A stretch of DNA of 64,000 nt from Ktedonobacteraceae bacterium. GTDB lineage: Bacteria; Chloroflexota; Ktedonobacteria; Ktedonobacterales; Ktedonobacteraceae. The position numbers and the translations under genes were made by a program. Location: positions 23,624 through 87,623 of the forward strand of contig DASRHT010000056.1 of the NCBI GenBank assembly GCA_035650355.1. The letters are read 5' to 3'. The notes under the pieces are model-generated. The model ran no database searches. It saw only the letters and a program-made list of their open reading frames with translations, and was not told the origin of the DNA. Within the stretch, counting starts at the first letter, position 1; each line of letters begins with the position of its first letter. Below, piece by piece: positions 3,264 through 61,365 of the stretch.

Positions 3264-3311
3264 CCGTAGGGACCCGATTTATCGCGTCCGAGCGCGGTTT
3301 ACCGCGTTCCC
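3264..3311. repeat. REP family 2 (CCGTAGGGACCCGATTTATCGCGTCC...GCGGTTTACCGCGTTCCC)
   Basis: Imperfect palindrome GGAC-CGAT..ATCG-GTCC. Related copies at 9954-9990, 34553-34590 (reverse), 52338-52370 (reverse), 57065-57105, 57512-57552 and 61295-61342. Confidence 0.85.
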
Positions 3312-3475: not shown

Positions 3476-3967
3476 ATGGAGACGGAGATAGCAGCAAATA
3501 AAGCGATTATCCGCCGATTATTTGATGAGGCGCTCAACCAGAGACATCTGGAACTGCTGGACGAGCTATTTAGCGCAGACTTTGTGGATCACTCGACCCC
3601 GCAGCAACGACCAGGACCAGAAGGCGTCAAAGATTTTTTCGTCGAAGTACATCTCCACTTTCCAGATATAAAAGTGACAATCGAAGATATGATCGCCGAA
3701 GGCAATCGAGTCGTCGTGCGTACACTATGGCACAGCACCGCCCGAAACGCCGTAGGGACCTCCCACGATGAAGCGAGGAGCTCCAGCGCGTCCGCCCAGG
3801 ATAGCAAGCCATTCATTGCAGACAGCCTGAGCGAAGCTAGCGCGTCAGCAGCGTTGGCTGCCTGGAATAGCAAGCCGTTAAACGGATCGCTGATCCAGAT
3901 CTTCCACCTGGAAAACGGGCGGATTGTGGAGGAATGGAACGAGGGGAGCGGACTGGGGGAAGCATAA
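3476..3967 (+). CDS. SnoaL-like / ester-cyclase family protein carrying an internal repeat-derived insertion
   Basis: N-terminus NKAIIRRLFDEALNQRHLELLDELFSADFVDHS and C-terminus FHLENGRIVEEWNE are ester-cyclase-like. The central ~49 aa (ARNAVGTSHDEARSS...SEASASAALAAWNSKPLNG) is encoded by repeat DNA at 3740-3886. Confidence 0.7.
   Translation: METEIAANKAIIRRLFDEALNQRHLELLDELFSADFVDHSTPQQRPGPEGVKDFFVEVHLHFPDIKVTIEDMIAEGNRVVVRTLWHSTARNAVGTSHDEARSSSASAQDSKPFIADSLSEASASAALAAWNSKPLNGSLIQIFHLENGRIVEEWNEGSGLGEA
3818..3864. repeat. GCGAAGC-core palindromic element, copy A (inside CDS)
   Basis: GCAGACAGC-CTGAGCGAAGCTAGCGCGTCAGCAGCGTT-GGCTGCCTG, flanked by direct repeats ATAGCAAGCC (3801-3810 and 3867-3876). 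Homologous copies at 53948-53993 and 54797-54844. Confidence 0.85.
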
Positions 3968-8417: not shown

Positions 8418-8448
8418 TTGCTCCAATGAAATGCAGGCAGGAGCAAGC

Positions 8449-8624
8449 GGGGCAGGGGCAAGCCCGGCCCCTACAGGGTGTGGTCAATTGGATGGCGACA
8501 GGGCAGGGGCAAGCCCGGCCCCTACAGGGTGTGGTCAAATAGGATGGCGACAGGGGCAAGCGTGGCCCCTACAGGATGTGGTCAATAGGGTGGCGACAGG
8601 GCAGGGGCAAGCCCGGCCCCTACA
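8449..8624. repeat. tandem array (about 3.5 x 52 bp) of REP family 1 units
   Basis: Unit GGGGCAGGGGCAAGCCCGGCCCCTACAGGGTGTGGTCAATTGGATGGCGACA at 8449, 8501, 8553 (46-bp variant) and 8599 (partial). Confidence 0.9.
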
Positions 8625-8711
8625 TCTTTTCACTGCCGTGAGGCGCAGATGCATGCGTGCAGCCTTTTTATGTTTCGTGACCTCACTTTAGGCGGTGAAA
8701 GGATAGACTGT

Positions 8712-18719: not shown

Positions 18720-19034
18720 GTGAGCTTTTTCGATGTGACCACCAATGCGCGCCAGGGTTTCAGTATTGAACTGACAGATGAGGAGTTGAAGCTGGTGACA
18801 GGAGCCCGTGGCGGACATAACAACCACGGCAACCATAATCATCATAACCACAACAATCATCACAATCACAACAATCATCATAACCATCATAACCATCATA
18901 ACCACAACAACAATCATAACCACAACAATCATCATAACCGGCAAGTCAACCACAACAACAATAATAACAATAACTGCCATCGGCATCACCGTCACCATAA
19001 CCAGTTCTTTTGCAATAACAATGACAATGATTAG
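18720..19034 (+). CDS. double-glycine(GA)-leader peptide precursor B, His/Asn-rich core
   Basis: AAGGAG at 18707-18712 and GTG at 18720. The leader ...IELTDEELKLVTGA is paralogous to that of precursor A. The 75-aa core has about 26 His, 33 Asn and 2 Cys. Confidence 0.65.
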   Translation: MSFFDVTTNARQGFSIELTDEELKLVTGARGGHNNHGNHNHHNHNNHHNHNNHHNHHNHHNHNNNHNHNNHHNRQVNHNNNNNNNCHRHHRHHNQFFCNNNDND

Positions 19035-26171: not shown

Positions 26172-26264
26172 CCGTAGGGGCAGGGCTAGCCCCTGCCCTG
26201 CTCGTCACTGCCCTGGTTTACCGTAGGGGCTGACAGGGCTGGCTCCTGCCCTGTTAGCCCCTAC
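26172..26264. repeat. two REP family 1 palindromes between ilvC and panB
   Basis: CCGTAGGGGCAGGGCTAGCCCCTGCCCTGC (26172-26201) and GTAGGGGCTGACAGGGC..GCCCTGTTAGCCCCTAC (26223-26264). The second contains the panB stop codon. Confidence 0.9.
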
Positions 26265-34700: not shown

Positions 34701-34754
34701 TTGACAGCAGTGAGTATTGGTATTATCCTCTTTACTAAATGGTCATTTAGTAAA
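34701..34754 (+). promoter_or_regulatory. candidate promoter plus 24-bp palindromic operator
   Basis: TTGACA at 34701-34706 and TATCCT at 34724-34729. Palindrome TTTACTAAATG-GT-CATTTAGTAAA at 34731-34754. Confidence 0.4.
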
Positions 34755-34895
34755 CTGATTGGTGCTGCTTTGAAAGTATACCGCGCTCCAACGCTCCCAC
34801 GATGAAGCGGGGAGTGACAGGGCAACCGCAAGGGATATCTTGCAATTCCGCCTGCCAACGCTCCTACGATCAATCGGGGAGCTACCGCGTCTAGC

Positions 34896-34921
34896 AGGGC
34901 AGGGGCAAGCCCTGCCCCTAC
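34896..34921. repeat. REP family 1 copy between operator and tetR-family gene
   Basis: AGGGCAGGGGCAAGCCCTGCCCCTAC. Confidence 0.85.
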
Positions 34922-34979
34922 GGCGGGCGGCAAAGAAGGCCCCTACGGAGCGCGGCATCGAAGTAGAAGGGAATACGGT

Positions 34980-35624
34980 GTGGCAAAGAACGGCTCGGAT
35001 CACTTTTCGTCGGCTCTTGACCGGGAAACGCGGCGGCAGATCCTTAAAGTTGCCGAGGAACTTTTTCTTGCTCGCGGCTATAAAGGCGTCTCGATGAAGG
35101 ATGTCGCAGAGGCGGTTCAGGTCACGCCCGCAGCCCTCTATTACCATTTTCCGCAGGGCAAGGAAGACCTCTTTATGAGTACGATCCAGGCCCTGTTCGA
35201 AGAATGGGCGGCAGGCGTCTCGCGCGCCATCGCGCCCGCTCAGGAGATTCGCGAACGCTTGCAATTGCTTACCGAGTACTTGCTGACGCTGCCGGTCAAC
35301 CATTTTCCAACTCTGGCACAGGATGCGCACGAACATATGAAGGACCGCGAGAAACAGCGCGCCATCTTTCACCAGTTGCGCGAGATGTTTATGCGCCAGA
35401 TCATTGACGTTTTTCAACAGGCAAAGGACGCTGGCGAGATCCGTGCCGATATCTCCATTCCTGTGCTGGCCAACATGTACCAGGGCATGATCATTGCATC
35501 ATTGCAACAGAAGCATATCTCAGCCAAAAAAGCTGAAGTTGTAGAGGTATCGGAACTGTCCGCGACGCTTATTTCAGTACTATTGGATGGCATCAAACAG
35601 CCCGTGCAACCAGATAGCTTTTAA
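34980..35624 (+). CDS. TetR/AcrR family transcriptional regulator
   Basis: 214 aa. RRQILKVAEELFLARGYKGVSMKDVAEAVQVTPAALYYHF is a TetR_N HTH. Confidence 0.9.
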   Translation: MAKNGSDHFSSALDRETRRQILKVAEELFLARGYKGVSMKDVAEAVQVTPAALYYHFPQGKEDLFMSTIQALFEEWAAGVSRAIAPAQEIRERLQLLTEYLLTLPVNHFPTLAQDAHEHMKDREKQRAIFHQLREMFMRQIIDVFQQAKDAGEIRADISIPVLANMYQGMIIASLQQKHISAKKAEVVEVSELSATLISVLLDGIKQPVQPDSF

Positions 35625-53073: not shown

Positions 53074-53097
53074 TTTGACAGCAGAAATATAGACAAA

Positions 53098-53390
53098 AGC
53101 TTTGAAGGGACGAGTAGCAGTTCCCGTGGCTTCCAGAGAGTGGGCGGCTGGTGGAAAGCCCATAGTACACAAACTGCGAAAAAGAACCCTAAGCTGCGAG
53201 AAGAAATCGCGAGACGCGAGAGTAGAACTGCGCCGGACGCCTCCGTAATCGGGCACGCTGGTAGGGGTACATTACGATGGCCCATACCCACTGAGGTTGA
53301 CGCCGTGAGGCATCAGCGAATGAAGGTGGTACCACAAGAGTAAATAACGCTCTTTGTCCTTCCCAAGAGGATAAAGGGCTTTTTTGTTGG
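53098..53390 (+). promoter_or_regulatory. T-box riboswitch leader 1, Lys (AAA) specifier
   Basis: Stem I: GAAGGGACGAGTA, AGAGAG bulge, GGTGGAAAG distal loop. GCAGTT pairs with AACTGC, then GAA-AAA-G (codon 53181-53183). T-box sequence AATGAAGGTGGTACCACAAGAG at 53319-53340. Terminator 53349-53386 plus T6. Confidence 0.8.
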
Positions 53391-53532: not shown

Positions 53533-53632
53533 AGAAGAGCATCGCAGACGCGAGATCCGGTCGCTCATGCAGGGAATCAGGTACACACTAAAACAACATA
53601 TATATAAACCACAATTGCATAGTGAAAAGCTG

Positions 53633-53910
53633 TGAAGGGACGAGTAACGGGAACTGCGGCATGCAGAGAGCGGACGGCAGGTGAAAGGTCCGTATGCGCA
53701 ACCCGTGAAAAAAAACCGGATGCTGCCAGAAGAAATCGCGAGATGCGAGAGTAGAACTGCGCCGGCTTGCTCCCCGTGACCGGAGCGCGTACTAACTGCT
53801 GTACGTTTGAGGTCGATGCTGCGAGGCATCGGCGAATGAAGGTGGTACCACGAGAGCAATGATCGCTCTTCGTCCTTCCAATGTTGGAGGATGAAGAGCA
53901 TTTTTATTTG
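53633..53910 (+). promoter_or_regulatory. T-box riboswitch leader 2, Lys (AAA) specifier
   Basis: GAAGGGACGAGTA, AGAGAG, GGTGAAAGG. ACGGG pairs with CCCGT, then GAA-AAA-A (codon 53710-53712). AATGAAGGTGGTACCACGAGAG at 53835-53856. Terminator GCTCTTCGTCCT..AGGATGAAGAGC plus ATTTTTATTT (53865-53910). Confidence 0.8.
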
Positions 53911-53947
53911 GTTCAGTTGAAATTTGTCTACACATAATACTTCGATT

Positions 53948-53993
53948 CCGCACTCCTGAGCGAAGCTAGCGCGTTAGCAGCGTTGGAGCGCGG
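53948..53993. repeat. GCGAAGC-core palindromic element, copy B (lysW 5' UTR)
   Basis: CCGCACTC-CTGAGCGAAGCTAGCGCGTTAGCAGCGTT-GGAGCGCGG. Confidence 0.85.
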
Positions 53994-54026
53994 AAAGTTT
54001 AAGGGTAGTAAAGGAGAAAAACGAAC

Positions 54027-54188
54027 ATGGCACAGTGTCCCGAATGCGAAGCCGAGATGAGCCTGCAAGGTCTGATGATTGGCGAGATTATCTACTGTCC
54101 CGACTGTAATGCGGAACTGGAGGTGCTGAACCTGGAACAGCCCCAGGTGGGGCTGGCTCCGCAGGTCGAAGAAGATTGGGGAGAATAA
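54027..54188 (+). CDS. lysW: alpha-aminoadipate/glutamate carrier protein LysW
   Basis: 53 aa, below the ORF-track cutoff. MAQCPECEAEM...YCPDCNAEL zinc ribbon and C-terminal EEDWGE tail. AAGGAG RBS. Confidence 0.88.
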   Translation: MAQCPECEAEMSLQGLMIGEIIYCPDCNAELEVLNLEQPQVGLAPQVEEDWGE

Positions 54189-54262
54189 GCAGAATTTTGA
54201 TATTCCGCCAGCTTGAACGATAGCATACGGCTGTATTCAAGCTGGCAAGGAGAGTAACGACG

Positions 54263-55192
54263 ATGCGTTTAGCTATTCTAACATCCCGCATTCGTGTGGA
54301 AGAGAAGTTGTTGATCGAGGCCATGCGGAGGCGCGCTATCGATTTTGATGTGATCGATGATGAAGAACTGCTCTTTGATCTCGCCCGGCCTGATGAGCGC
54401 TGGCGAGCGTACGATGCTGTGCTTTGTCGCAGCGTGAGCCAGTCGCGCGGGCTGGCGGCGCTGCACATCCTGGAGCACATGGGCATTATCGTCTTTAATT
54501 CGGCGGCGGTGACTGCACGCTGTAATGACAAGTTGCTCACGACGCTGGCACTCATGCGCGCGGGCGTTCCCACTCCTCGCACGATGCTGGCATTCGATGC
54601 GCAGCGAGCCGTGCAGGGAATTGAAGAGCTGGGCTATCCGGTTGTGCTCAAGCCCGTGACAGGTTCCTGGGGGCGGCTGCTGGCGCGCATTAATGATCGC
54701 GATGCGGCTGAAGCGGTGCTTGAGCATCAGGAGACGCTTGGCTCGTACCAGCACCACATTCACTATATTCAGCAGTATATCGCCAAGCAATTCGTTGCAG
54801 ACGACCTGAGCGAAGCTAGCTGCGAGAGCGGCGTTGGTCGTCTGAATAGCAAGCTACAACGCGATATTCGCGCCTTCGTCGTGGGTGATCGTACGATCTG
54901 CGCCATCTATCGCACCAGCGAACATTGGGTTACCAATACCGCACGCGGCGCGGTTGCCAGCAATTGCCCCATCTCTGCCGAACTGGATCGCCTCTGCACG
55001 CAGGCGGCGCAGGCGGTGGGCGGCGGTATCCTGGCAATCGATGTACTGGAGGACCCGGAGCGGGGCCTGCTGGTCAACGAGATCAATGCGACGATGGAGT
55101 TTCGCAATAGCATCGCGCCAACGGGCGTCGATATCCCTGATGCGATGCTGGATTATGTGCTGAGCCATGTGCGGGAAGGAGTGGCGCTATGA
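54263..55192 (+). CDS. lysX: RimK-type ATP-grasp ligase LysX (alpha-aminoadipate--LysW ligase) with 23-codon repeat insertion
   Basis: MRLAILTSRIRVEEKLLIEA..., GYPVVLKPVTGSWGR, and RDIRAFVVGDRTICAIYR. The extra segment FVADDLSEASCESGVGRLNSKLQ is encoded by 54791-54859. Confidence 0.88.
   Translation: MRLAILTSRIRVEEKLLIEAMRRRAIDFDVIDDEELLFDLARPDERWRAYDAVLCRSVSQSRGLAALHILEHMGIIVFNSAAVTARCNDKLLTTLALMRAGVPTPRTMLAFDAQRAVQGIEELGYPVVLKPVTGSWGRLLARINDRDAAEAVLEHQETLGSYQHHIHYIQQYIAKQFVADDLSEASCESGVGRLNSKLQRDIRAFVVGDRTICAIYRTSEHWVTNTARGAVASNCPISAELDRLCTQAAQAVGGGILAIDVLEDPERGLLVNEINATMEFRNSIAPTGVDIPDAMLDYVLSHVREGVAL
54797..54844. repeat. GCGAAGC-core palindromic element, copy C (inside lysX)
   Basis: GCAGACGAC-CTGAGCGAAGCTAGCTGCGAGAGCGGCGTT-GGTCGTCTG with a perfect 9-bp stem, followed by AATAGCAAGC as in copy A. 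Confidence 0.9.
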
Positions 55193-57064: not shown

Positions 57065-57552
57065 TCGTAGGGTCCCGCTTTAGCGCGACCGGCGCGATTT
57101 ATCGCGTTCCCCACGAGAAAACACGGTTTCACCATCGAACTGATGATGCTCAGCACCGCATTTGCATTTGTCGTACAGGATGATTTTGAAGAGAAAGCGA
57201 CACGGGTGATTTTGGGAAAGCGAGCTGATTGTGGACAGAGTGGCTTGCACCGTCCTGCTTGTACGGATGAGGCCAGATGGAAAGCGAGCTGATTGTGGAC
57301 AAAATGGCTTGCACCGTCCTGCTTGTAGGCATGAGGCCAGATGGAAAGCGAGCTGATTGTGGACAAAATGGCTTGCAACAGGGATATTTTCGTGGGGACG
57401 AGCTGATTGCGAATGGAGCGGATCATAGCATGATGATTTTAATTTGGGATAACCATATTGGTAACGGTTGGGCATTGAGGGCGAGATTTGAGGGTTGCGA
57501 AGGGTGGGTAGGCGATAAATCGCGCCGGTCGCGCTAAAGCGGGACCCTACGA
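57065..57552. mobile_element. MITE-like non-autonomous element with 41-bp perfect terminal inverted repeats
   Basis: 57065-57105 (TCGTAGGGTCCCGCTTTAGCGCGACCGGCGCGATTTATCGC) is the exact reverse complement of 57512-57552. No credible ORF inside. Sits between lysZ and lysJ. Confidence 0.65.
57216..57420. repeat. 63-bp tandem repeat, about 3 copies, inside the MITE-like element
   Basis: GGAAAGCGAGCTGATTGTGGACA(A/G)A(A/G)TGGCTTGCACCGTCCTGCTTGTA..GATGAGGCCAGAT recurs at 57216, 57279 and 57342. Confidence 0.9.
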
Positions 57553-57594: not shown

Positions 57595-60180
57595 ATGACT
57601 AACATCATAGATCTGGAGAATACCTACACCAGCGGGGTGTACAGCAAGCGCCCGGTGGCGATTGTGCGCGGGGCGAAGGCGACGCTATGGGATGATGAGG
57701 GGCGAGCGTATATTGATTGCGCGGCGGGGCATGGCGTGGCTAATATCGGGCATGGACGTTCTGAGATAGCGGCTGCGTTGTCGGCTCAAGCGCTGCGGCT
57801 GGTGACGTGCCCCGAAATTCTCTATAACGATACGCGTGCTCACTTGCTGGAACGGCTCGTCCGTCTGACGCCGGAGGGACTTGATCGGGTGTTTCTGTGC
57901 AATAGCGGGACGGAGGCGATTGAGGGGGCGCTCAAGCTCGCTCGTCTGGTGACGGGACGGACGGGGATTGTGGCGACGTTGCGCGGCTTTCATGGACGCA
58001 GCATGGGCGCGCTTTCAGCAACGTGGGAGCCGCATTATCGCGAGCCATTCGCGCCGCTGGTGCCAGGGGTGACGCATATTCGTTACAACAATCTGGCTGC
58101 GGCTGAAAATGCCATCACTGAAGAGACGGCTGCCGTACTGATCGAGCTGGTGCAGGGCGAGGGCGGTGTGCATATCGCGACGGATGACTATATTCATGGG
58201 CTGGCGAGGCTGTGTCGCGAGCGGGGCGCGCTGCTGATTGTCGATGAGGTGCAGACTGGCTTTGGGCGCACCGGTCGCCTCTTCGCCTGCAACCATTATG
58301 ATCTATCGCCTGACATCCTCTGCCTCGCCAAATCGCTGGCCGGCGGCGTACCGATGGGGGCGATCTGCCTGGGGCCGCGCGTGACCGAGAGCGGGCGCAT
58401 CAGCAAAGGCGTGCATGGCAGCACCTTTGGCGGCAATCCGCTGGCCTGCGCTGCTGCACTGGCAACGCTCGACATTATCGAGAGAGAGGCGTTGCCGCAG
58501 AGGAGCGCCGAACTGGGTGCGTATGCTCTGGAGCGGTTGCGCGCATTGCAATCGCCGCTCATTCGCGAGGTGCGTGGTTGCGGTCTGATGATCGGCATCG
58601 AACTAACGCGGCGCGTCCAACCTTATCTTGAGACATTATGTGAACGCGGCATTCTCGCGCTGCCTGCCGGTCCCAACGTCCTGCGCCTCCTGCCCCCGTT
58701 AGTGATCGAACGGGAACAGCTAGATCATGTGCTGGACGTTGTGGCGGAACTATTGCAGGAGGGGGCGCGTGTAGGGGCAGGGCTTGCCCCTGCCCAGCCC
58801 CCTGACGTTGTGGAGGAACTATTGCAGGGGGCTGCGCGTGTAGGGGCAGGGCTTGCCCCTGCCCAGCCCGTTTCCCCTATCCCAGATGCGCCCGCCCAGG
58901 GTACATGCCTGCTACCCAGCAGGGCGGGGGCAAGCCCCGCCCCTACAGAAAACAGGGAGATCGCGTTACTGCATGGGATGCTGACCATTCCGAGCTATTC
59001 CGGTCAGGAGGGGGCGCTGGCGCATTATCTGGTTGAGCAGGCGCAGCAGATGGGGTTGCATGCATATGTGGATGAGGCTGGTAATTTTGTTGCCAGCACG
59101 ACGGAAAGCCATGCAAGTGAGCAACCGTTGGTTCTGCTGGGGCATATGGATACCGTGCGGGGCCATGTTCCGATCAGGTTCGAGGATGGCAAGCTGTATG
59201 GGCGCGGCGCGGTCGATGCTAAGGGGCCGTTGGCAGCGTTTATCTGTGCGGCGGCTCGCATCGCTCATTCGGGGGCAACGCAACGGCCCGTGATTGTGAT
59301 CGGTGCGGTCGAGGAGGAGGCGGCGACGTCGCGGGGCGCGCGTGCGGTGGTGGCGCGGTATCAGCCGGTGGGCTGCGTGATTGGCGAGCCGAGTGGGAGC
59401 CAGGCTGTGACGATTGGCTACAAGGGCCGCTTGCTGGTCGAATGCCATGTGACGCGTCCGCTGGCCCACACTGCCGGTCCGCTGCCATTCAGTTGCGAGG
59501 TGGCGACGACCTTCTGGGAGCGTGTGCGTACACACGCCGACGCATGGAACCGGCGTCATGCCAGTGGTGCGGACAGTAGAGGCTTTATGGCTCTTACGCC
59601 TTCTTTACGCAACATCAATAGCGTGCAGGATGGGCTTGAAGAGCAGACGCGGCTATTGATCGGCTATCGGTTGCCGCCAAATTGCGATATAGTAGAGATA
59701 CGCACGCAGCTAAGCGATTGGGCCGATGAGCTTGACCTGCGCCTGATGTTTTCGGGGGAAGAGGCCGCGTTCCAGACGACGCGCACAACGCCACTGGCGC
59801 GGGCCTTCATCGGCGCTATTCGAGCGAGCGGCGGGCAGCCAGGCTTCAAGTATAAAACGGGTACGTCGGATATGAATGTCGTGGGTCCGGTATGGTTCCA
59901 ACATGCGCAATTTCAGTATCCTCAAACGGATCGTGCTTTGGCACCGGCTCTCACCGCTCCTGAGGGAGAGTATACTCATGAAACCTTGAGGAGTCAAGCG
60001 GAGATGCGTAGGGGACCGAACATCATTGCATATGGGCCAGGAGACTCGCGCCTGGATCACACTCCTCAGGAGCATATCGAGCTTAGCGAGTATCTCCAGG
60101 CTATCGATGTGCTTGAACATGTACTGATGGGCGTTGCAGCGCAGAGGGAGATAGGTCATGAGATCGCCAGCTATTCTTGA
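57595..60180 (+). CDS. lysJ-lysK: fusion of LysJ ([LysW]-aminoadipate semialdehyde aminotransferase, class III) and LysK ([LysW]-lysine hydrolase, M20/ArgE-like)
   Basis: 861-aa single ORF. N-terminal ~395 aa carry DEVQTGFGRTG and LAKSLAGGVPMGA. The linker LQEGARVGAGLAPAQPPDVVEELLQGAARVGAGLAPAQP...RAGASPAPT is encoded by REPs. The C-terminal part carries LLGHMDTV, GRGAVDAKGP and YGPGDSRLDHTPQEHIEL. Confidence 0.8.
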   Translation: MTNIIDLENTYTSGVYSKRPVAIVRGAKATLWDDEGRAYIDCAAGHGVANIGHGRSEIAAALSAQALRLVTCPEILYNDTRAHLLERLVRLTPEGLDRVFLCNSGTEAIEGALKLARLVTGRTGIVATLRGFHGRSMGALSATWEPHYREPFAPLVPGVTHIRYNNLAAAENAITEETAAVLIELVQGEGGVHIATDDYIHGLARLCRERGALLIVDEVQTGFGRTGRLFACNHYDLSPDILCLAKSLAGGVPMGAICLGPRVTESGRISKGVHGSTFGGNPLACAAALATLDIIEREALPQRSAELGAYALERLRALQSPLIREVRGCGLMIGIELTRRVQPYLETLCERGILALPAGPNVLRLLPPLVIEREQLDHVLDVVAELLQEGARVGAGLAPAQPPDVVEELLQGAARVGAGLAPAQPVSPIPDAPAQGTCLLPSRAGASPAPTENREIALLHGMLTIPSYSGQEGALAHYLVEQAQQMGLHAYVDEAGNFVASTTESHASEQPLVLLGHMDTVRGHVPIRFEDGKLYGRGAVDAKGPLAAFICAAARIAHSGATQRPVIVIGAVEEEAATSRGARAVVARYQPVGCVIGEPSGSQAVTIGYKGRLLVECHVTRPLAHTAGPLPFSCEVATTFWERVRTHADAWNRRHASGADSRGFMALTPSLRNINSVQDGLEEQTRLLIGYRLPPNCDIVEIRTQLSDWADELDLRLMFSGEEAAFQTTRTTPLARAFIGAIRASGGQPGFKYKTGTSDMNVVGPVWFQHAQFQYPQTDRALAPALTAPEGEYTHETLRSQAEMRRGPNIIAYGPGDSRLDHTPQEHIELSEYLQAIDVLEHVLMGVAAQREIGHEIASYS
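58735..58872. repeat. 69-bp in-frame tandem duplication (x2), each copy carrying a REP family 1 palindrome
   Basis: GACGTTGTGG(C/A)GGAACTATTGCAGG...GTAGGGGCAGGGCTTGCCCCTGCCCAGCCC at 58735 and 58804. REP cores at 58771-58795 and 58840-58864. Confidence 0.9.
58921..58946. repeat. REP family 1 copy (opposite orientation) in the lysJ-lysK linker
   Basis: AGGGCGGGGGCAAGCCCCGCCCCTAC. Confidence 0.85.
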
Positions 60181-61300
60181 TTCGACATTGCGCGAGGGGG
60201 AGCAGTTCGTGGGCGCTTACTTCACCCTTGAGCAACGCCTGAGCATCGTGCGGCTGCTGGACGCTATCGGCGTGGAGTTGATTGAGGTGCCTTCGCCGAT
60301 TGCTTCGCCGGAGACGCAGGGTGCCGTACAGGCCATTTGCAAAGCTGGTTTGCGCGCTCGCATCGTCGCGCACGTTCGCTGCATGGAGGCTGACGTGCAG
60401 GCTGCCCTGGCGACGCCCGTGTATGGGCTGAATCTCTTCTATGGCACCTCAAGCGAGCTGCGCAGCTATAGTCATGGCCGCGACATCGATCAGGTCATCG
60501 TCGCTGCGGTTCCGCTGATCTGCTCTATTCGCGCCGCCGGTCGGTACGTGCGTTTCTCGGCAGAGGATGCCTTTCGCAGCGATCTGGTAGACCTGCTAAC
60601 GGTCTTTGACGCGGTGGTGGAGGCAGGCGTGCAGCGGATCGGGCTGCCGGATACTGTCGGCATCGCGACTCCTCGTCAGGTGGAGCACCTCGTGCGCCTC
60701 TGCGCTGAACGCTATCCCAACGTCGGCATTGAGTTTCATGGGCATAACGATACCGGTTGTGCGATTGCTAACACCGTCGCGGCGCTGGAGAGTGGCGCGG
60801 ATTGCCTTGACGTGACCGTGCTAGGCATTGGTGAGCGCAACGGCATCGCCTCGCTTAGCGGCCTGGTGGCGCAACTCTATTCGCACCATCCCGAACTACT
60901 GGCAGCGTACGACCTGACCCGTCTCGTCGAGCTTGATCAGTACGTGGCGCGGTGCCTCAATCTGACCATTCCCTTTAATATCCCGATCACCGCTCCAGGC
61001 GCTTTTACGCATAGAGCAGGTGTGCATACCAGAGCCATCCTGCAAAATCCGCGCGCGTACGAGGCGCTCGATCCGGGCGATTTTGGCCTGGAGCGGCAGA
61101 TCGATATCGGCTCTCGTTTCACCGGACGCCACGCCGTCGCCCATCGCGCGGCCATCCTGGGGTTCAGATTGAGCAACGAGGAAATCGCCAATCTCACCAG
61201 CGCGCTCAAGGCCAGAGCCGAGCGGGGCGCGCTCAACCTGGAAGAGGTCGATGCTTTTATGCGAGAGTGGCATGCATCCATTCATGCCGTAATTCCGTAG
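60158..61300 (+). CDS. hcs: homocitrate synthase (LeuA/HCS family, no LeuA regulatory domain)
   Basis: 380 aa. ILDSTLREGEQ, HGHNDTGCAIAN, and context with lysW-Z. Overlaps the lysJ-lysK end by 23 nt. Confidence 0.8.
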   Translation: MRSPAILDSTLREGEQFVGAYFTLEQRLSIVRLLDAIGVELIEVPSPIASPETQGAVQAICKAGLRARIVAHVRCMEADVQAALATPVYGLNLFYGTSSELRSYSHGRDIDQVIVAAVPLICSIRAAGRYVRFSAEDAFRSDLVDLLTVFDAVVEAGVQRIGLPDTVGIATPRQVEHLVRLCAERYPNVGIEFHGHNDTGCAIANTVAALESGADCLDVTVLGIGERNGIASLSGLVAQLYSHHPELLAAYDLTRLVELDQYVARCLNLTIPFNIPITAPGAFTHRAGVHTRAILQNPRAYEALDPGDFGLERQIDIGSRFTGRHAVAHRAAILGFRLSNEEIANLTSALKARAERGALNLEEVDAFMREWHASIHAVIP

Positions 61301-61342
61301 GGACCCGATTTATCGCGTCCGGCGCGATTTATCGCGTTCCCC
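61295..61342. repeat. REP family 2 copy containing the hcs stop codon
   Basis: CCGTAGGGACCCGATTTATCGCGTCCGGCGCGATTTATCGCGTTCCCC. TAG at 61298-61300 is the stop. Confidence 0.9.
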
Positions 61343-61365
61343 AACATTAAAAGAAGGAGCCAATC

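What the first reader, a model, noticed from the sequence alone, without database searches (positions are those of the whole stretch)
54791..54859. In-frame 69-bp palindromic element inside lysX, with family members inside another CDS and in the lysW 5' UTR
LysX reads ...YIQQYIAKQ-[FVADDLSEASCESGVGRLNSKLQ]-RDIRAFVVGDR. As I recall them, homologs go almost directly from the YI.EY..K segment to RDIR.FVVG. The extra 23 codons are a hairpin element: a 9-bp perfect stem CAGACGACC/GGTCGTCTG around a CTGAGCGAAGCTAGC core, which contains the very stable GCGAAGC mini-hairpin sequence. Copy A (3818-3864) is in-frame in a SnoaL-like gene and flanked by 10-bp direct repeats ATAGCAAGCC. Copy B (53948-53993) is noncoding. 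The stems differ between copies but stay complementary (GACAGC/GCTGCC, CACTC/GGAGCG, GACGAC/GTCGTC), which suggests the structure is under selection. In-frame palindromic insertions are known from Rickettsia (RPEs). I do not know them from this lineage.
Basis: partly seen in the sequence, partly recalled or inferred. Interest (0 to 1): 0.65.

Follow-up and report, generated by a model that had tools for sequence, protein, structure and literature searches.

The report
In-frame palindromic mobile element family
A 66-base hairpin-forming piece of selfish DNA, present in dozens of copies but only in Ktedonobacteria, has landed in frame inside the lysine-biosynthesis gene lysX and many other genes, where it is carried as an extra surface loop; it is a new family of an already known kind of element.

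Summary
Three copies in the window share the exact 15-mer CTGAGCGAAGCTAGC, against 0.26 expected by chance.

The lysX copy is a net 66-nt, 22-codon insertion at 54788-54853. More than 150 diverse LysX/ArgX homologues lack it, as do relatives 86-89% identical in protein. Three relatives also lack the lysW-leader copy. A sister genome about 92% identical to the window carries two further in-frame copies in lysJ-lysK where the window is empty.

The family has more than 100 copies in 12 species-level genomes, all Ktedonobacterales. The copies form a covarying hairpin:
- variable arms;
- a conserved CCTGAGC...CGTTGG junction;
- an apical region with a G-N-A mini-hairpin and a GNNA hairpin, where GTAG-type REPs or further copies often nest.

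Subfamily-1 copies lie directly 3' of (A/G)(G/C)CAAG and end in ATAGCAAG. In genes they are in frame, in either orientation: LysX, LysJ-K, GH31, PEP carboxylase, MutS-like and others.

lysX stays under purifying selection (dN/dS 0.07). In a confident model the insert is the only disordered loop.

Verdict: a new family of small, non-autonomous palindromic mobile elements, analogous to Rickettsia RPEs and intragenic REPs. How it moves is inferred, not shown.

The parts
54788..54853 (+). lysX copy (copy C). A net 66-nt in-frame insertion encoding QFVADDLSEASCESGVGRLNSK.
   Evidence: Empty alleles L048/L049 read ..GCCAAA|CCACAG.., against the window's ..GCCAAG[66 nt]CTACAA... The PDB and homologue alignments break at residues 175|198.
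54798..54805 (+). 5' arm of stem P1 (CAGACGAC). Pairs with 54837-54844.
   Evidence: Covariation in the 55-copy alignment: columns 20-25 with 59-64. The MFE fold shows the same stem.
54837..54844 (+). 3' arm of stem P1 (GTCGTCTG).
54806..54837 (+). Apical core CTGAGC-GAAGCTAGC-TGCGAGAGCG-GCGTTGG. P2 is the mini-hairpin AGC-GAA-GCT at 54809-54817. P3 is the hairpin GC-TGC-GAGA-GCG-GC at 54819-54832.
   Evidence: Identical in 55 copies, though these were found by an exact-pattern search. P3 covaries. The middle base of the P2 loop varies as G-N-A in the arm-anchored sample.
54263..55192 (+). lysX (LysW-2-aminoadipate ligase, ATP-grasp), 309 aa, intact.
3811..3876 (+). Copy A (subfamily 1), in frame in a SnoaL-like ORF. 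It ends in ATAGCAAGCC (3867-3876), which repeats the 5' flank at 3801-3810.
   Evidence: PDB 3k0z aligns to query 26-88 and 130-155 with contiguous chain residues, so about 41 residues are extra.
3752..3800 (+). GTAG-headed REP-type block: GTAGGGAC.., with the nested hairpin CTCCCACGATGAAGCGAGGAG (repeat family D6). It sits directly 5' of copy A and is also in frame in the SnoaL-like ORF.
   Evidence: The same hairpin family is nested inside other copies of the element.
53940..54008 (+). Copy B (subfamily 2: CTTCGATTCCGCACTC..core..GAGCGCGGAAAGTTTAAGGGTAG). Non-coding, in the lysW leader.
   Evidence: The site is empty in L049, L050 and L051. It lies between the T-box terminator and the lysW Shine-Dalgarno sequence.
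59124..59125 (+). Empty site in the fused lysJ-lysK ORF. Sister genome L015 has a 66-nt in-frame copy here (FLADDLSEASCESGVGHLDSKM).
59193..59194 (+). Empty site GGCAAG|CTGTAT in lysJ-lysK. L015 has a 69-nt in-frame copy here (QFFAESLSEASHGSGVDLRHSR).
34790..34975 (-). Degenerate nested composite. Subfamily-2 arms enclose GTAG REPs, a second arm pair and D6 hairpins. GCGTTGG is kept; the canonical 5' half of the core is missing.

Best explanation
This is a copy of a small (about 64-70 nt), non-autonomous, hairpin-forming mobile DNA element. The family is specific to Ktedonobacterales.

Shown:
- The element has been inserted recently and repeatedly; related genomes differ in filled and empty sites.
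- It consists of variable but complementary arms, a conserved junction (CCTGAGC ... CGTTGG), and an apical region that readily accepts further palindromes.
- Subfamily-1 copies sit immediately 3' of (A/G)(G/C)CAAG and themselves end in ATAGCAAG(CC).
- Copies inside genes are those that fall in a stop-free frame. They are translated as roughly 22 extra residues in loops, leaving the host protein under purifying selection.

Inferred:
- The element is selfish and is moved in trans by an enzyme encoded elsewhere in the genome.
- Most likely it moves as a folded single strand, handled by an HUH-type (RAYT / IS200-IS605-like) nuclease. That enzyme would cut after the GCAAG at the element's 3' end and after a GCAAG in the target, leaving no true target duplication.
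- I put about 0.4 on this last step.
- In sense orientation the target ..C-AAG| sets the frame: AAG is a Lys codon, followed by C[AC]A-TTC.., which reads through as ..F-x-A-D-x-L-S-E-A-S..
For: Mobility:
- lysX is filled in the window, L015 and L051, and empty in L048, L049 and L050.
- The leader copy B is absent from L049, L050 and L051.
- Two copies in L015 lysJ-lysK are absent from the window, at about 92% synteny.
- The GH31 gene is filled in L052 and empty in L053, and L053 has another copy, in antisense, elsewhere in the same gene.

Family and range:
- 52 exact-core copies lie in 47 loci of 10 assemblies, all Ktedonobacterales or labelled 'Chloroflexia'.
- The covariance model found 67 hits in 361 kb.
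- An arm-anchored scan added about 25 loci and 2 assemblies.
- There are no hits in viral contigs.

Structure:
- 92% of cells pair, against 27-45% when the partners are slid.
- 166 cells carry a change on both sides, against 58 in shuffles.

Target:
- Five empty sites carry one CAAG-like motif exactly at the junction.
- 19 of 46 arm-anchored copies have CAAG at positions -6 to -3 of the 5' flank.
- Tandem arrays have a single GCAAGCC between units (L148).

DNA-level events:
- GTAG REPs, or further copies of the element, are nested in the apical region.
- One copy is nested inside another in L047.

Tolerance in proteins:
- The hosts are real domain proteins (Pfam).
- lysX has dN/dS 0.066.
- In the AlphaFold model the insert is the only low-confidence stretch, between strands 167-171 and 199-207, and TM is 0.96 to 3vpd.
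- The same loop carries unrelated natural inserts of 4-12 residues in 5 distant homologues.
Against: - No transposase or HUH gene was linked to the element. The small ORFs of the window have no such Pfam hit.
- The direct repeats could equally be a genuine 5-6 bp target-site duplication made by a DDE transposase. An own-versus-cross flank test gave only a modest signal (p about 0.02-0.04).
- The bases next to the insertion differ from the empty alleles more than background divergence predicts. In lysX, 4 of 12 nt differ against 6-7% overall. The same holds upstream of the first L015 copy. A clean cut-and-join does not explain this.
- The lysX insert is present in the more distant L051 but absent from L048, which is as close to the window as L015 is. 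This needs loss, allelic recombination or repeated insertion.
- The identity of the core in the first sample is partly an effect of how the copies were found.
Confidence: 0.8

Rival explanations
1. It is a classical MITE: a deletion derivative of an insertion sequence. A DDE transposase would bind the two inverted arms as double-stranded terminal repeats, cut and paste the element, and leave a 5-6 bp target-site duplication at a preferred GCAAG(C) target.
For: - The size and the inverted repeats fit.
- Direct repeats flank many copies: 10 nt perfect in copy A; ATGTAC and ACGCAC in the orthologous pair L008/L013; CTTGCT on both sides of the antisense GH31 copy, against a single one in the empty site.
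- Own flanks match slightly better than flanks of other copies.
- Arms that co-evolve with a cognate transposase would imitate stem covariation.
Against: - The outer and middle parts of the arms differ completely between subfamilies, while the inner junction is constant. This is the reverse of usual terminal-inverted-repeat conservation, and would need many cognate transposases.
- The 'duplication' has nearly the same sequence in most subfamily-1 copies, and it resembles the element's own 3' end even where the 3' flank differs.
- Subfamily 2 shows little or no duplication.
- No parent insertion sequence with these ends was seen among 46 arm-anchored hits; the 3 copies without a 3' arm look truncated.
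Confidence: 0.25
2. The conserved three-way junction is a functional RNA (a cis-regulator, protein-binding motif or small ribozyme) that acts in transcripts. The repeat family exists because the RNA module is useful or self-propagating.
For: - Stems P1 and P3 covary.
- The loops are of GNA and GNNA type.
- G.U pairs outnumber A.C on the + strand in P3, 10 against 2.
- Copy B lies in a transcribed leader.
- Copies in genes are mostly in sense orientation, about 11 against 4.
Against: - No Rfam family matches, even at E = 10.
- Over all pairs, G.U 24 against A.C 19 shows no clear strand.
- RNA folding z-scores are ordinary, and better on the - strand for two of the three copies.
- Intergenic copies are not co-oriented with genes: between tandem genes, 4 are sense and 10 antisense, by crude gene calls.
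- Antisense copies sit deep inside PEP carboxylase, MutS-like, reverse-transcriptase and GH31 genes.
- The apical 'core' is often replaced by REPs.
- All sense copies in genes are in the one open frame, so they are read through rather than removed.
Confidence: 0.07
3. The mobile unit is only the ~31-nt core, which invades the tips of hairpins already present (REPs and other palindromes). On this view the differing 'arms' are captured host hairpins, not compensatory evolution.
For: - The apical region is clearly a hot spot for nested insertions.
- L025 has a core-less hairpin with identical arms next to a full copy.
- The nest at window 34790-34975 has arms without the canonical core.
Against: - Arms and core travel together. 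Each arm type recurs at many unrelated loci with the core: 23 of 25 and 9 of 10 arm matches.
- The filled-versus-empty comparisons show the whole 66-69 nt arriving at once at sites with no prior hairpin.
- Only one core-less arm pair was found in 425 kb.
Confidence: 0.08
4. The 22 residues are an adaptive or ancestral LysX feature, a lineage-specific functional loop, and not selfish DNA.
For: - The insert is kept in three genomes, with only one change, a synonymous one, between the window and L015.
- The loop naturally varies in a few distant homologues.
Against: - The same DNA occurs in non-coding DNA and in unrelated genes, in both orientations.
- The closest LysX homologues lack it.
- The model gives it low confidence, with no defined structure.
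Confidence: 0.02

Closest known systems
Rickettsia palindromic elements (RPE-1 to RPE-8; Ogata et al. 2000, from my own knowledge; RPE-1 insertions in ORFs are mentioned in PMC3733652)
   Same: - Short palindromic repeats.
- Inserted in frame in housekeeping genes as well as in non-coding DNA.
- Translated as extra surface segments without inactivating the protein.
- Restricted to one lineage, with no transposase of their own.
   Different: - No sequence similarity, and a different phylum.
- About 66 nt here, against roughly 100-150 nt.
- This family has a defined insertion motif (GCAAG), a conserved junction with variable covarying arms, and frequent nesting with REPs.
REP / REPIN elements with their RAYT transposases, including REPs inside ORFs (PMC3733652; PMC3116915)
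   Same: - Short imperfect palindromes in many copies.
- Singly, in tandem or nested.
- G.T pairs in the stems.
- Some lie inside genes and encode 20-30 residues (PMC3733652).
- Mobilised in trans by an HUH tyrosine transposase.
- GTAG-type REPs co-exist with this element in the window and nest inside it.
   Different: - The element has no GTAG or CGTC head.
- It is longer than a REP (20-40 nt).
- Its conserved part is internal, not at one end.
- It is common between divergent genes and inside genes, rather than downstream of genes.
- No RAYT gene has been linked to it.
Bacterial MITEs (for example Correia/NEMIS, the cyanobacterial MITEs and Coxiella QMITEs; reviews PMC10969869, PMC2229807, PMC5896051 seen in search lists only)
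   Same: Small, non-autonomous, with inverted-repeat ends, sometimes direct repeats at the flanks, occasional in-frame insertions, and effects on neighbouring genes.
   Different: - No parent insertion sequence is known.
- The flanking repeat is nearly constant in sequence and equals the element's own 3' end.
- The terminal parts of the arms are not the most conserved part.
IS200/IS605-family derivatives (palindrome-associated transposable elements) and other HUH substrates (from my own knowledge)
   Same: - Insertion immediately 3' of a specific 4-5 nt motif.
- No true target duplication.
- Hairpins are the recognised structure.
- Excision and insertion are strand-specific.
   Different: - Those elements have separate, unlike hairpins at the left and right ends, and unlike cleavage motifs.
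- Here one long hairpin spans the whole element, and the flank motif and the end motif are the same.
- Nothing here was tested biochemically.

Membership tests
Rickettsia palindromic elements (RPE) | Sequence homology to one of the RPE families; occurrence in Rickettsia | tested here: not met
   All 47 + 39 loci that carry the element are Ktedonobacterales or 'Chloroflexia' MAGs. I did not align it against RPE consensus sequences; size and host differ.
Rickettsia palindromic elements (RPE) | Palindromic repeat inserted in frame in protein-coding genes without disrupting them | tested here: met
   LysX, LysJ-K, GH31, PEP carboxylase, MutS-like, SnoaL and others. lysX has dN/dS 0.066 and an intact predicted fold.
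REP / REPIN | 20-40 nt imperfect palindrome with a conserved GTAG or CGTC tetranucleotide at one end | tested here: not met
   The element is 64-70 nt and begins (A/C)TTC. No GTAG or CGTC head appears in the alignment. Other families in the same window do have GTAG heads.
REP / REPIN | Cognate RAYT gene flanked by the repeats (REPtron) | tested here: inconclusive
   None in the window. None between inverted pairs in L031, L033 or L039. A tblastn with Y1 transposases found nothing in 425 kb. No whole genome was searched.
MITE | Small, non-coding, with terminal inverted repeats | tested here: met
   64-70 nt, with arms of 8 to about 20 nt that are inverted complements.
MITE | Target-site duplication of fixed length and variable sequence | tested here: inconclusive
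   Direct repeats are present, but they are nearly constant in sequence within subfamily 1 (GCAAG..) and weak in subfamily 2. The own-versus-cross flank test gave p about 0.02-0.04.
MITE | A full-length insertion sequence with the same ends exists | tested here: inconclusive
   The arm-anchored scan gave 46 copies. Only 3 lacked a nearby 3' arm, and these look truncated. No complete genome was searched.
IS200/IS605-type (HUH, single-strand) elements | Insertion 3' of a specific short motif, without target duplication | tested here: inconclusive
   Five empty sites and 19 of 46 flanks have CAAG at the junction. This is compatible, but a sequence-specific duplication cannot be excluded.
IS200/IS605-type (HUH, single-strand) elements | Cleavage and strand transfer by a Y1 HUH transposase on folded single-stranded DNA; bias towards the lagging strand | not testable with these tools
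   Needs biochemistry, or complete genomes with known replication origins.
Known structured RNA families (Rfam 15) | Match to a covariance model | tested here: not met
   No match at gathering score over the window. No match at E up to 10 over 53900-54900.

The most novel reading that the evidence does not exclude
The conserved junction and apical module (CCTGAGC / G-N-A mini-hairpin / GNNA hairpin / CGTTGG) has been kept across a dozen Ktedonobacterales species while the arms were replaced by compensating changes. It could be the recognition or catalytic centre of a mobility system not yet described. Two forms are conceivable. One is a hairpin element whose single fold serves as both ends for an unknown single-strand nuclease or recombinase, with target choice set by the element itself. 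The other is a small self-processing RNA that is copied back into DNA.
Probability: 0.12. Interest if true: 0.75.

Novelty: new member of a known kind. Interest (0 to 1): 0.45.

Why it matters
Ktedonobacteria have very large genomes, and their repeat content is essentially undescribed. I found no paper on this family or on any small repeat of the class.

This family, together with the GTAG REPs that nest in it, inserts into central metabolic and repair genes. It lengthens proteins by about 22 residues per copy, sometimes two or three copies per gene.

That matters in three practical ways:
- Annotation. Proteins come out longer, HMM alignments split in two, and 'novel loops' appear.
- Protein engineering. 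The copies form a natural map of loops that tolerate insertions.
- Strain typing. Closely related genomes differ in which sites are filled.

The family also offers a clean system of filled and empty sites for asking how such hairpin elements choose their targets, and whether they can leave again.

Tried and rejected
1. Rfam at gathering score and at E up to 10: no family covers the element.
2. First AlphaFold run, with 14 near-identical sequences: pLDDT 43, unusable. Replaced by a run with 69 diverse homologues.
3. Searching the protein database with the element-encoded peptide. This cost one search.
4. Looking for a transposase between inverted pairs of copies. L039 holds glycosyltransferase-9-like genes, L033 a response regulator, and L031 a small protein that is not a transposase.
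5. Pfam on ten small ORFs of the window: DinB, CMD, glyoxalase or nothing; no HUH or DDE enzyme.
This is a weak test and would miss RAYTs.
7. Hammerhead, pistol and twister-type cores compared by eye: rejected. CUGA is followed by GC, not N-G-A, and Rfam is silent.
8. A 'guide' pairing between the 5' arm (CTTGC) and the GCAAG end: suggestive in some copies (L014 has CTTAC with GTAAG), but not consistent across the alignment, so I make no claim.
9. Translational bypass or splicing of the insert: rejected. All sense copies in genes lie in the single open frame, and the measured insertion lengths are multiples of three.
10. Viral contigs: no copy.
Full report

Yes. The 15-mer CTGAGCGAAGCTAGC occurs exactly three times, at 3827, 53956 and 54806, all on the + strand. 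The expectation is 0.26 matches even with two mismatches allowed.

An alignment of the three copies shows about 65 nt in common: a 5' arm, a 31-32 nt core ending in GCGTTGG, and a 3' arm complementary to the first.

The lysX stem (54798-54806 with 54836-54844) is perfect. Copies A and B each have one A.C mismatch. Copy A is flanked by ATAGCAAGCC at 3801-3810 and 3867-3876.

Folding energies are not remarkable on their own, with z between +0.3 and -2.8 depending on copy, strand and parameter set. The lysX copy does fold, as DNA or as RNA, into the three-way junction P1/P2/P3.

**2. Is the lysX segment an insertion?**

Yes.
- Solved LysX structures (3vpd, 1uc8) align to query residues 3-175 and 198-300, and their own residues 174|175 are contiguous.
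- The best 120 homologues are Ktedonobacteraceae LysX of about 287 aa. Only the window's own protein and one other (P0002, 315 aa) are longer.
- Proteins 86-89% identical read ..YIQQYIAKP-QRDIR...
- Of 150 diverse cluster representatives, nearly all match in two stretches that break at 175|197-199.
- In a 69-sequence alignment, 63 of 68 homologues have the short K-P-G-R-D-I-R-type loop. Five distant ones have unrelated extras of 4-12 residues, so the loop tolerates insertions naturally.
- At DNA level the empty alleles read GCCAAA|CCACAG (L048, L049). The window reads GCCAAG[CAATTC...AATAGCAAG]CTACAA. The net gain is 66 nt, at 54788-54853.

lysX is not decaying.
- Against the sister genome that shares the insert, dN/dS is 0.066 at dS 0.23. 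The only change inside the insert is synonymous.
- An AlphaFold model built on the diverse alignment has pLDDT 93.8 and pTM 0.91. Its only low-confidence stretch (56-68) is the insert, between strands 167-171 and 199-207.
- The model superposes on T. thermophilus LysX with a target-normalised TM-score of 0.96 and rmsd 1.3 A.

**3. The family**

A scan of one genome per species (185,579 species) for CTGAGCGAAGCTAGC-N8-10-GCGTTGG gave 47 loci with 52 copies in ten assemblies. All are Ktedonobacterales, or MAGs labelled 'Chloroflexia'. About 0.2 matches were expected by chance (my estimate from pattern length and database size). Viral contigs gave none.

The window is syntenic, at about 92% identity, with one of these genomes: Ktedonosporobacter sp. 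SMAG_U9905, locus L015.

A covariance model built from the 55 copies found only the three copies in the window at a significant score. It found 67 hits in 361 kb of loci, 16 of them with altered cores.

The first sample fixed the core by construction. I therefore ran a second scan anchored on subfamily-1 arms (ATTCNTTNCAGACNNCCTGAGC). It returned 39 Ktedonobacterales loci and 8 scattered chance hits. The 46 copies break down as follows:
- 13 have the canonical core.
- About 13 differ by one or two bases. Notably the P2 loop reads G-A/G/T/C-A.
- 12 carry a GTAG-headed REP hairpin (GTAGCTCCCCGATTCATCGTGGGAG) in place of P2, in either orientation.
- 5 carry another copy of the family nested after GAAGC.
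- 3 are truncated.
- CGTTGG is kept in almost all.

The constant parts are therefore the junction, CCTGAGC ... CGTTGG. The apical part is modular, and the arms differ by subfamily and by lineage.

**4. Structure**

On the 55-copy alignment the proposed pairs hold in 92.4% of cells, against 27-45% when the partners are slid. There are 166 cells with changes on both sides, against 58 in shuffles. The variation lies in P1 (six pairs with several pair types each) and in P3. P2 never varies in that sample.

G.T pairs outnumber A.C pairs only slightly overall, 24 against 19. In P3 the count is 10 against 2. The P3 loops are GNNA.

This shows selection for complementarity. It does not say whether the folded molecule is RNA, single-stranded DNA or a cruciform. 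Co-evolving terminal repeats could imitate part of the signal.

**5. Evidence that it moves, and where it lands**

Filled and empty alleles:
- lysX: as described in section 2.
- Leader copy B: absent from three relatives, which read ..ACACAATGT|TAGAAGGAGG...
- L015 lysJ-lysK: two extra in-frame copies of 66 and 69 nt. The window is empty there, at 59124|59125 and at GGCAAG|CTGTAT near 59193.
- GH31 glucosidase: filled in L052 (GGCAAG[CCATTC..AGCAAG]ACAATG) and empty in L053 (GGCAAA|ACAATG).
- GH31, second site: L053 has an antisense copy elsewhere in the gene. Its empty site in L052 has a single CTTGCT (= AGCAAG), and the filled site has one on each side.

Subfamily-1 copies thus lie directly 3' of (A/G)(G/C)CAAG and end in ATAGCAAG(CC). 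Of the arm-anchored copies, 19 of 46 have CAAG at -6 to -3 of the 5' flank. Tandem arrays have one GCAAGCC between units (L148, period 64 nt).

In all four sense-strand gene insertions the AAG is a lysine codon. That places the element in its only stop-free sense frame (..F-x-A-D-x-L-S-E-A-S..).

Subfamily 2, to which copy B belongs, has different ends (TAC|TTCGA ... CAAAGTA|G). Its flank again resembles its own 3' end.

**6. Hosts**

Pfam confirms that copies lie inside real domains:
- GH31 TIM barrel;
- type I phosphodiesterase;
- PEP carboxylase, MutS domain V, a group II intron reverse transcriptase and the second GH31 site (all four antisense);
- the C-terminal tails of an epimerase and of two histidine kinases;
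- SnoaL, LysX and the LysJ-LysK fusion.

In the SnoaL-like protein about 41 residues are extra. They come from a GTAG-REP block (3752-3800) followed by copy A.

I count about 11 independent sense insertions in genes and 4 antisense. The stop-free frames alone would predict a ratio of 1:2. The target motif makes that null model unreliable, so I give the bias little weight.

Intergenic copies are not co-oriented with neighbouring genes. Between tandem genes 4 are sense and 10 antisense; 16 lie between divergent genes and 5 between convergent genes. These rest on crude gene calls.

**7. What it is and how it works**

The evidence fits a selfish, non-autonomous, hairpin-forming DNA element. Copies survive in genes only when they land in frame in permissive loops.

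RNA-level function is not supported:
- Rfam gives no match.
- Copies occur in both orientations.
- The apical module is often replaced by REPs.
- Copies in genes are read through.

For the mechanism of movement I favour a single-strand, HUH-type reaction of the RAYT or IS200/IS605 kind, at about 0.4. The reasons:
- The element is essentially one hairpin with a short 3' tail ending in the same motif as the target.
- The 'repeat' is nearly constant in sequence.
- Tandem arrays follow naturally if each copy offers a new target.
- GTAG REPs, the substrates of RAYTs, share the genome and nest in the hairpin tip.

None of this is demonstrated. No candidate enzyme was found. A DDE-type MITE with a sequence-specific duplication remains a serious rival, at about 0.25.

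**8. Unexplained**

- The bases next to the insertions differ from the empty alleles more than background divergence predicts. In lysX the empty alleles read AAA CCA CAG CGT against AAG..CTA CAA CGC, in relatives 93-94% identical. Upstream of the first L015 lysJ-lysK copy, 9 of 18 nt differ.
- The lysX insert is present in the more distant L051, there with a REP nested in its core and still in frame. It is absent from L048, which is as close to the window as L015 is. This needs loss, allelic recombination or repeated insertion.

**9. Comparison and novelty**

The phenomenon is known. Examples are Rickettsia RPEs, REPs inside ORFs that encode 20-30 residues in several phyla (PMC3733652), and in-frame MITEs.

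This family shares no defining sequence feature with them: it has no GTAG or CGTC head, no known parent insertion sequence and no RPE homology. It comes from a class whose repeats are undescribed in the literature I could search.

I file it as a new member of a known kind. Three features are of some specialist interest: the conserved junction with covarying arms across about a dozen species, the fixed GCAAG landing site, and the nesting with REPs.

Noticed in passing
window 53093-53364 and 53623-53880 (+): Two tandem T-box leaders lie upstream of lysW. They score 86.4 and 69.2 bits (E 6e-19 and 2e-14), both below Rfam's gathering score of 93, so the default scan missed them. The second ends in a terminator at 53865-53899 followed by a T run. 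A T-box-controlled LysW-pathway operon in Ktedonobacteria may be worth a look; I did not read the specifier codon.
   Followed up: partly
window 58735-58869 (+), inside ORF 57595-60180: Two tandem 69-nt units, each containing the GTAG REP GTAGGGGCAGGGCTTGCCCCTGCCC, lie in frame in the linker of a fused LysJ (aminotransferase) - LysK (M20 peptidase) protein. They are translated as ..ARVGAGLAPAQP.. twice. The fusion itself is shared by relatives: L049 has an 806-aa protein with PF00202 and PF01546.
   Followed up: partly
window, many sites (e.g. 8448-8641, 26174-26258, 58771-58871, 3264-3290, 61295-61343): There are several families of GTAG-headed REP-like palindromes (repeat finder D2, D5, D7, D8, D17), singly and in clusters. 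No RAYT gene was seen in the window.
   Followed up: no
window 34790-34975 (- strand): A Russian-doll nest of palindromes. Subfamily-2 arms enclose a REP, a second arm pair, another REP and two D6 hairpins. It lies downstream of ORF 34746-35417, which has no Pfam hit.
   Followed up: partly
window 57215-57406: Three tandem 64-nt units (94% and 64% identity to the first) lie in the spacer between lysZ and lysJ-lysK. Their nature is unknown.
   Followed up: no
window 18816-18992 (ORF 18720-19031): A repeat with 9-nt periodicity (CAT AAC CAC ..) encodes a His/Asn-rich low-complexity stretch.
   Followed up: no
L033:5581-5651: The 3' end of one copy (..TTTCAAGGAGG) supplies a perfect Shine-Dalgarno sequence 8 nt before the probable ATG of a response-regulator gene. 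These elements may therefore rewire translation starts.
   Followed up: no
L051:3518-3618 (lysX of a metagenome relative, P0002): The same lysX insertion carries a REP hairpin (CTCCCGCGATGAATCGGGGAGCTAC) nested in its core. LysX becomes 315 aa and is still in frame: a second-generation insertion inside the first.
   Followed up: partly
L148:409-590 and L001:2257-2406, L005:1841-1960, L025:816-960: The element occurs in tandem arrays of 2-3 units, with a 64-66 nt period. In L001 the array lies within the C-terminal tail of an epimerase. In L025 a full copy is followed by a core-less hairpin with the same arms.
   Followed up: partly
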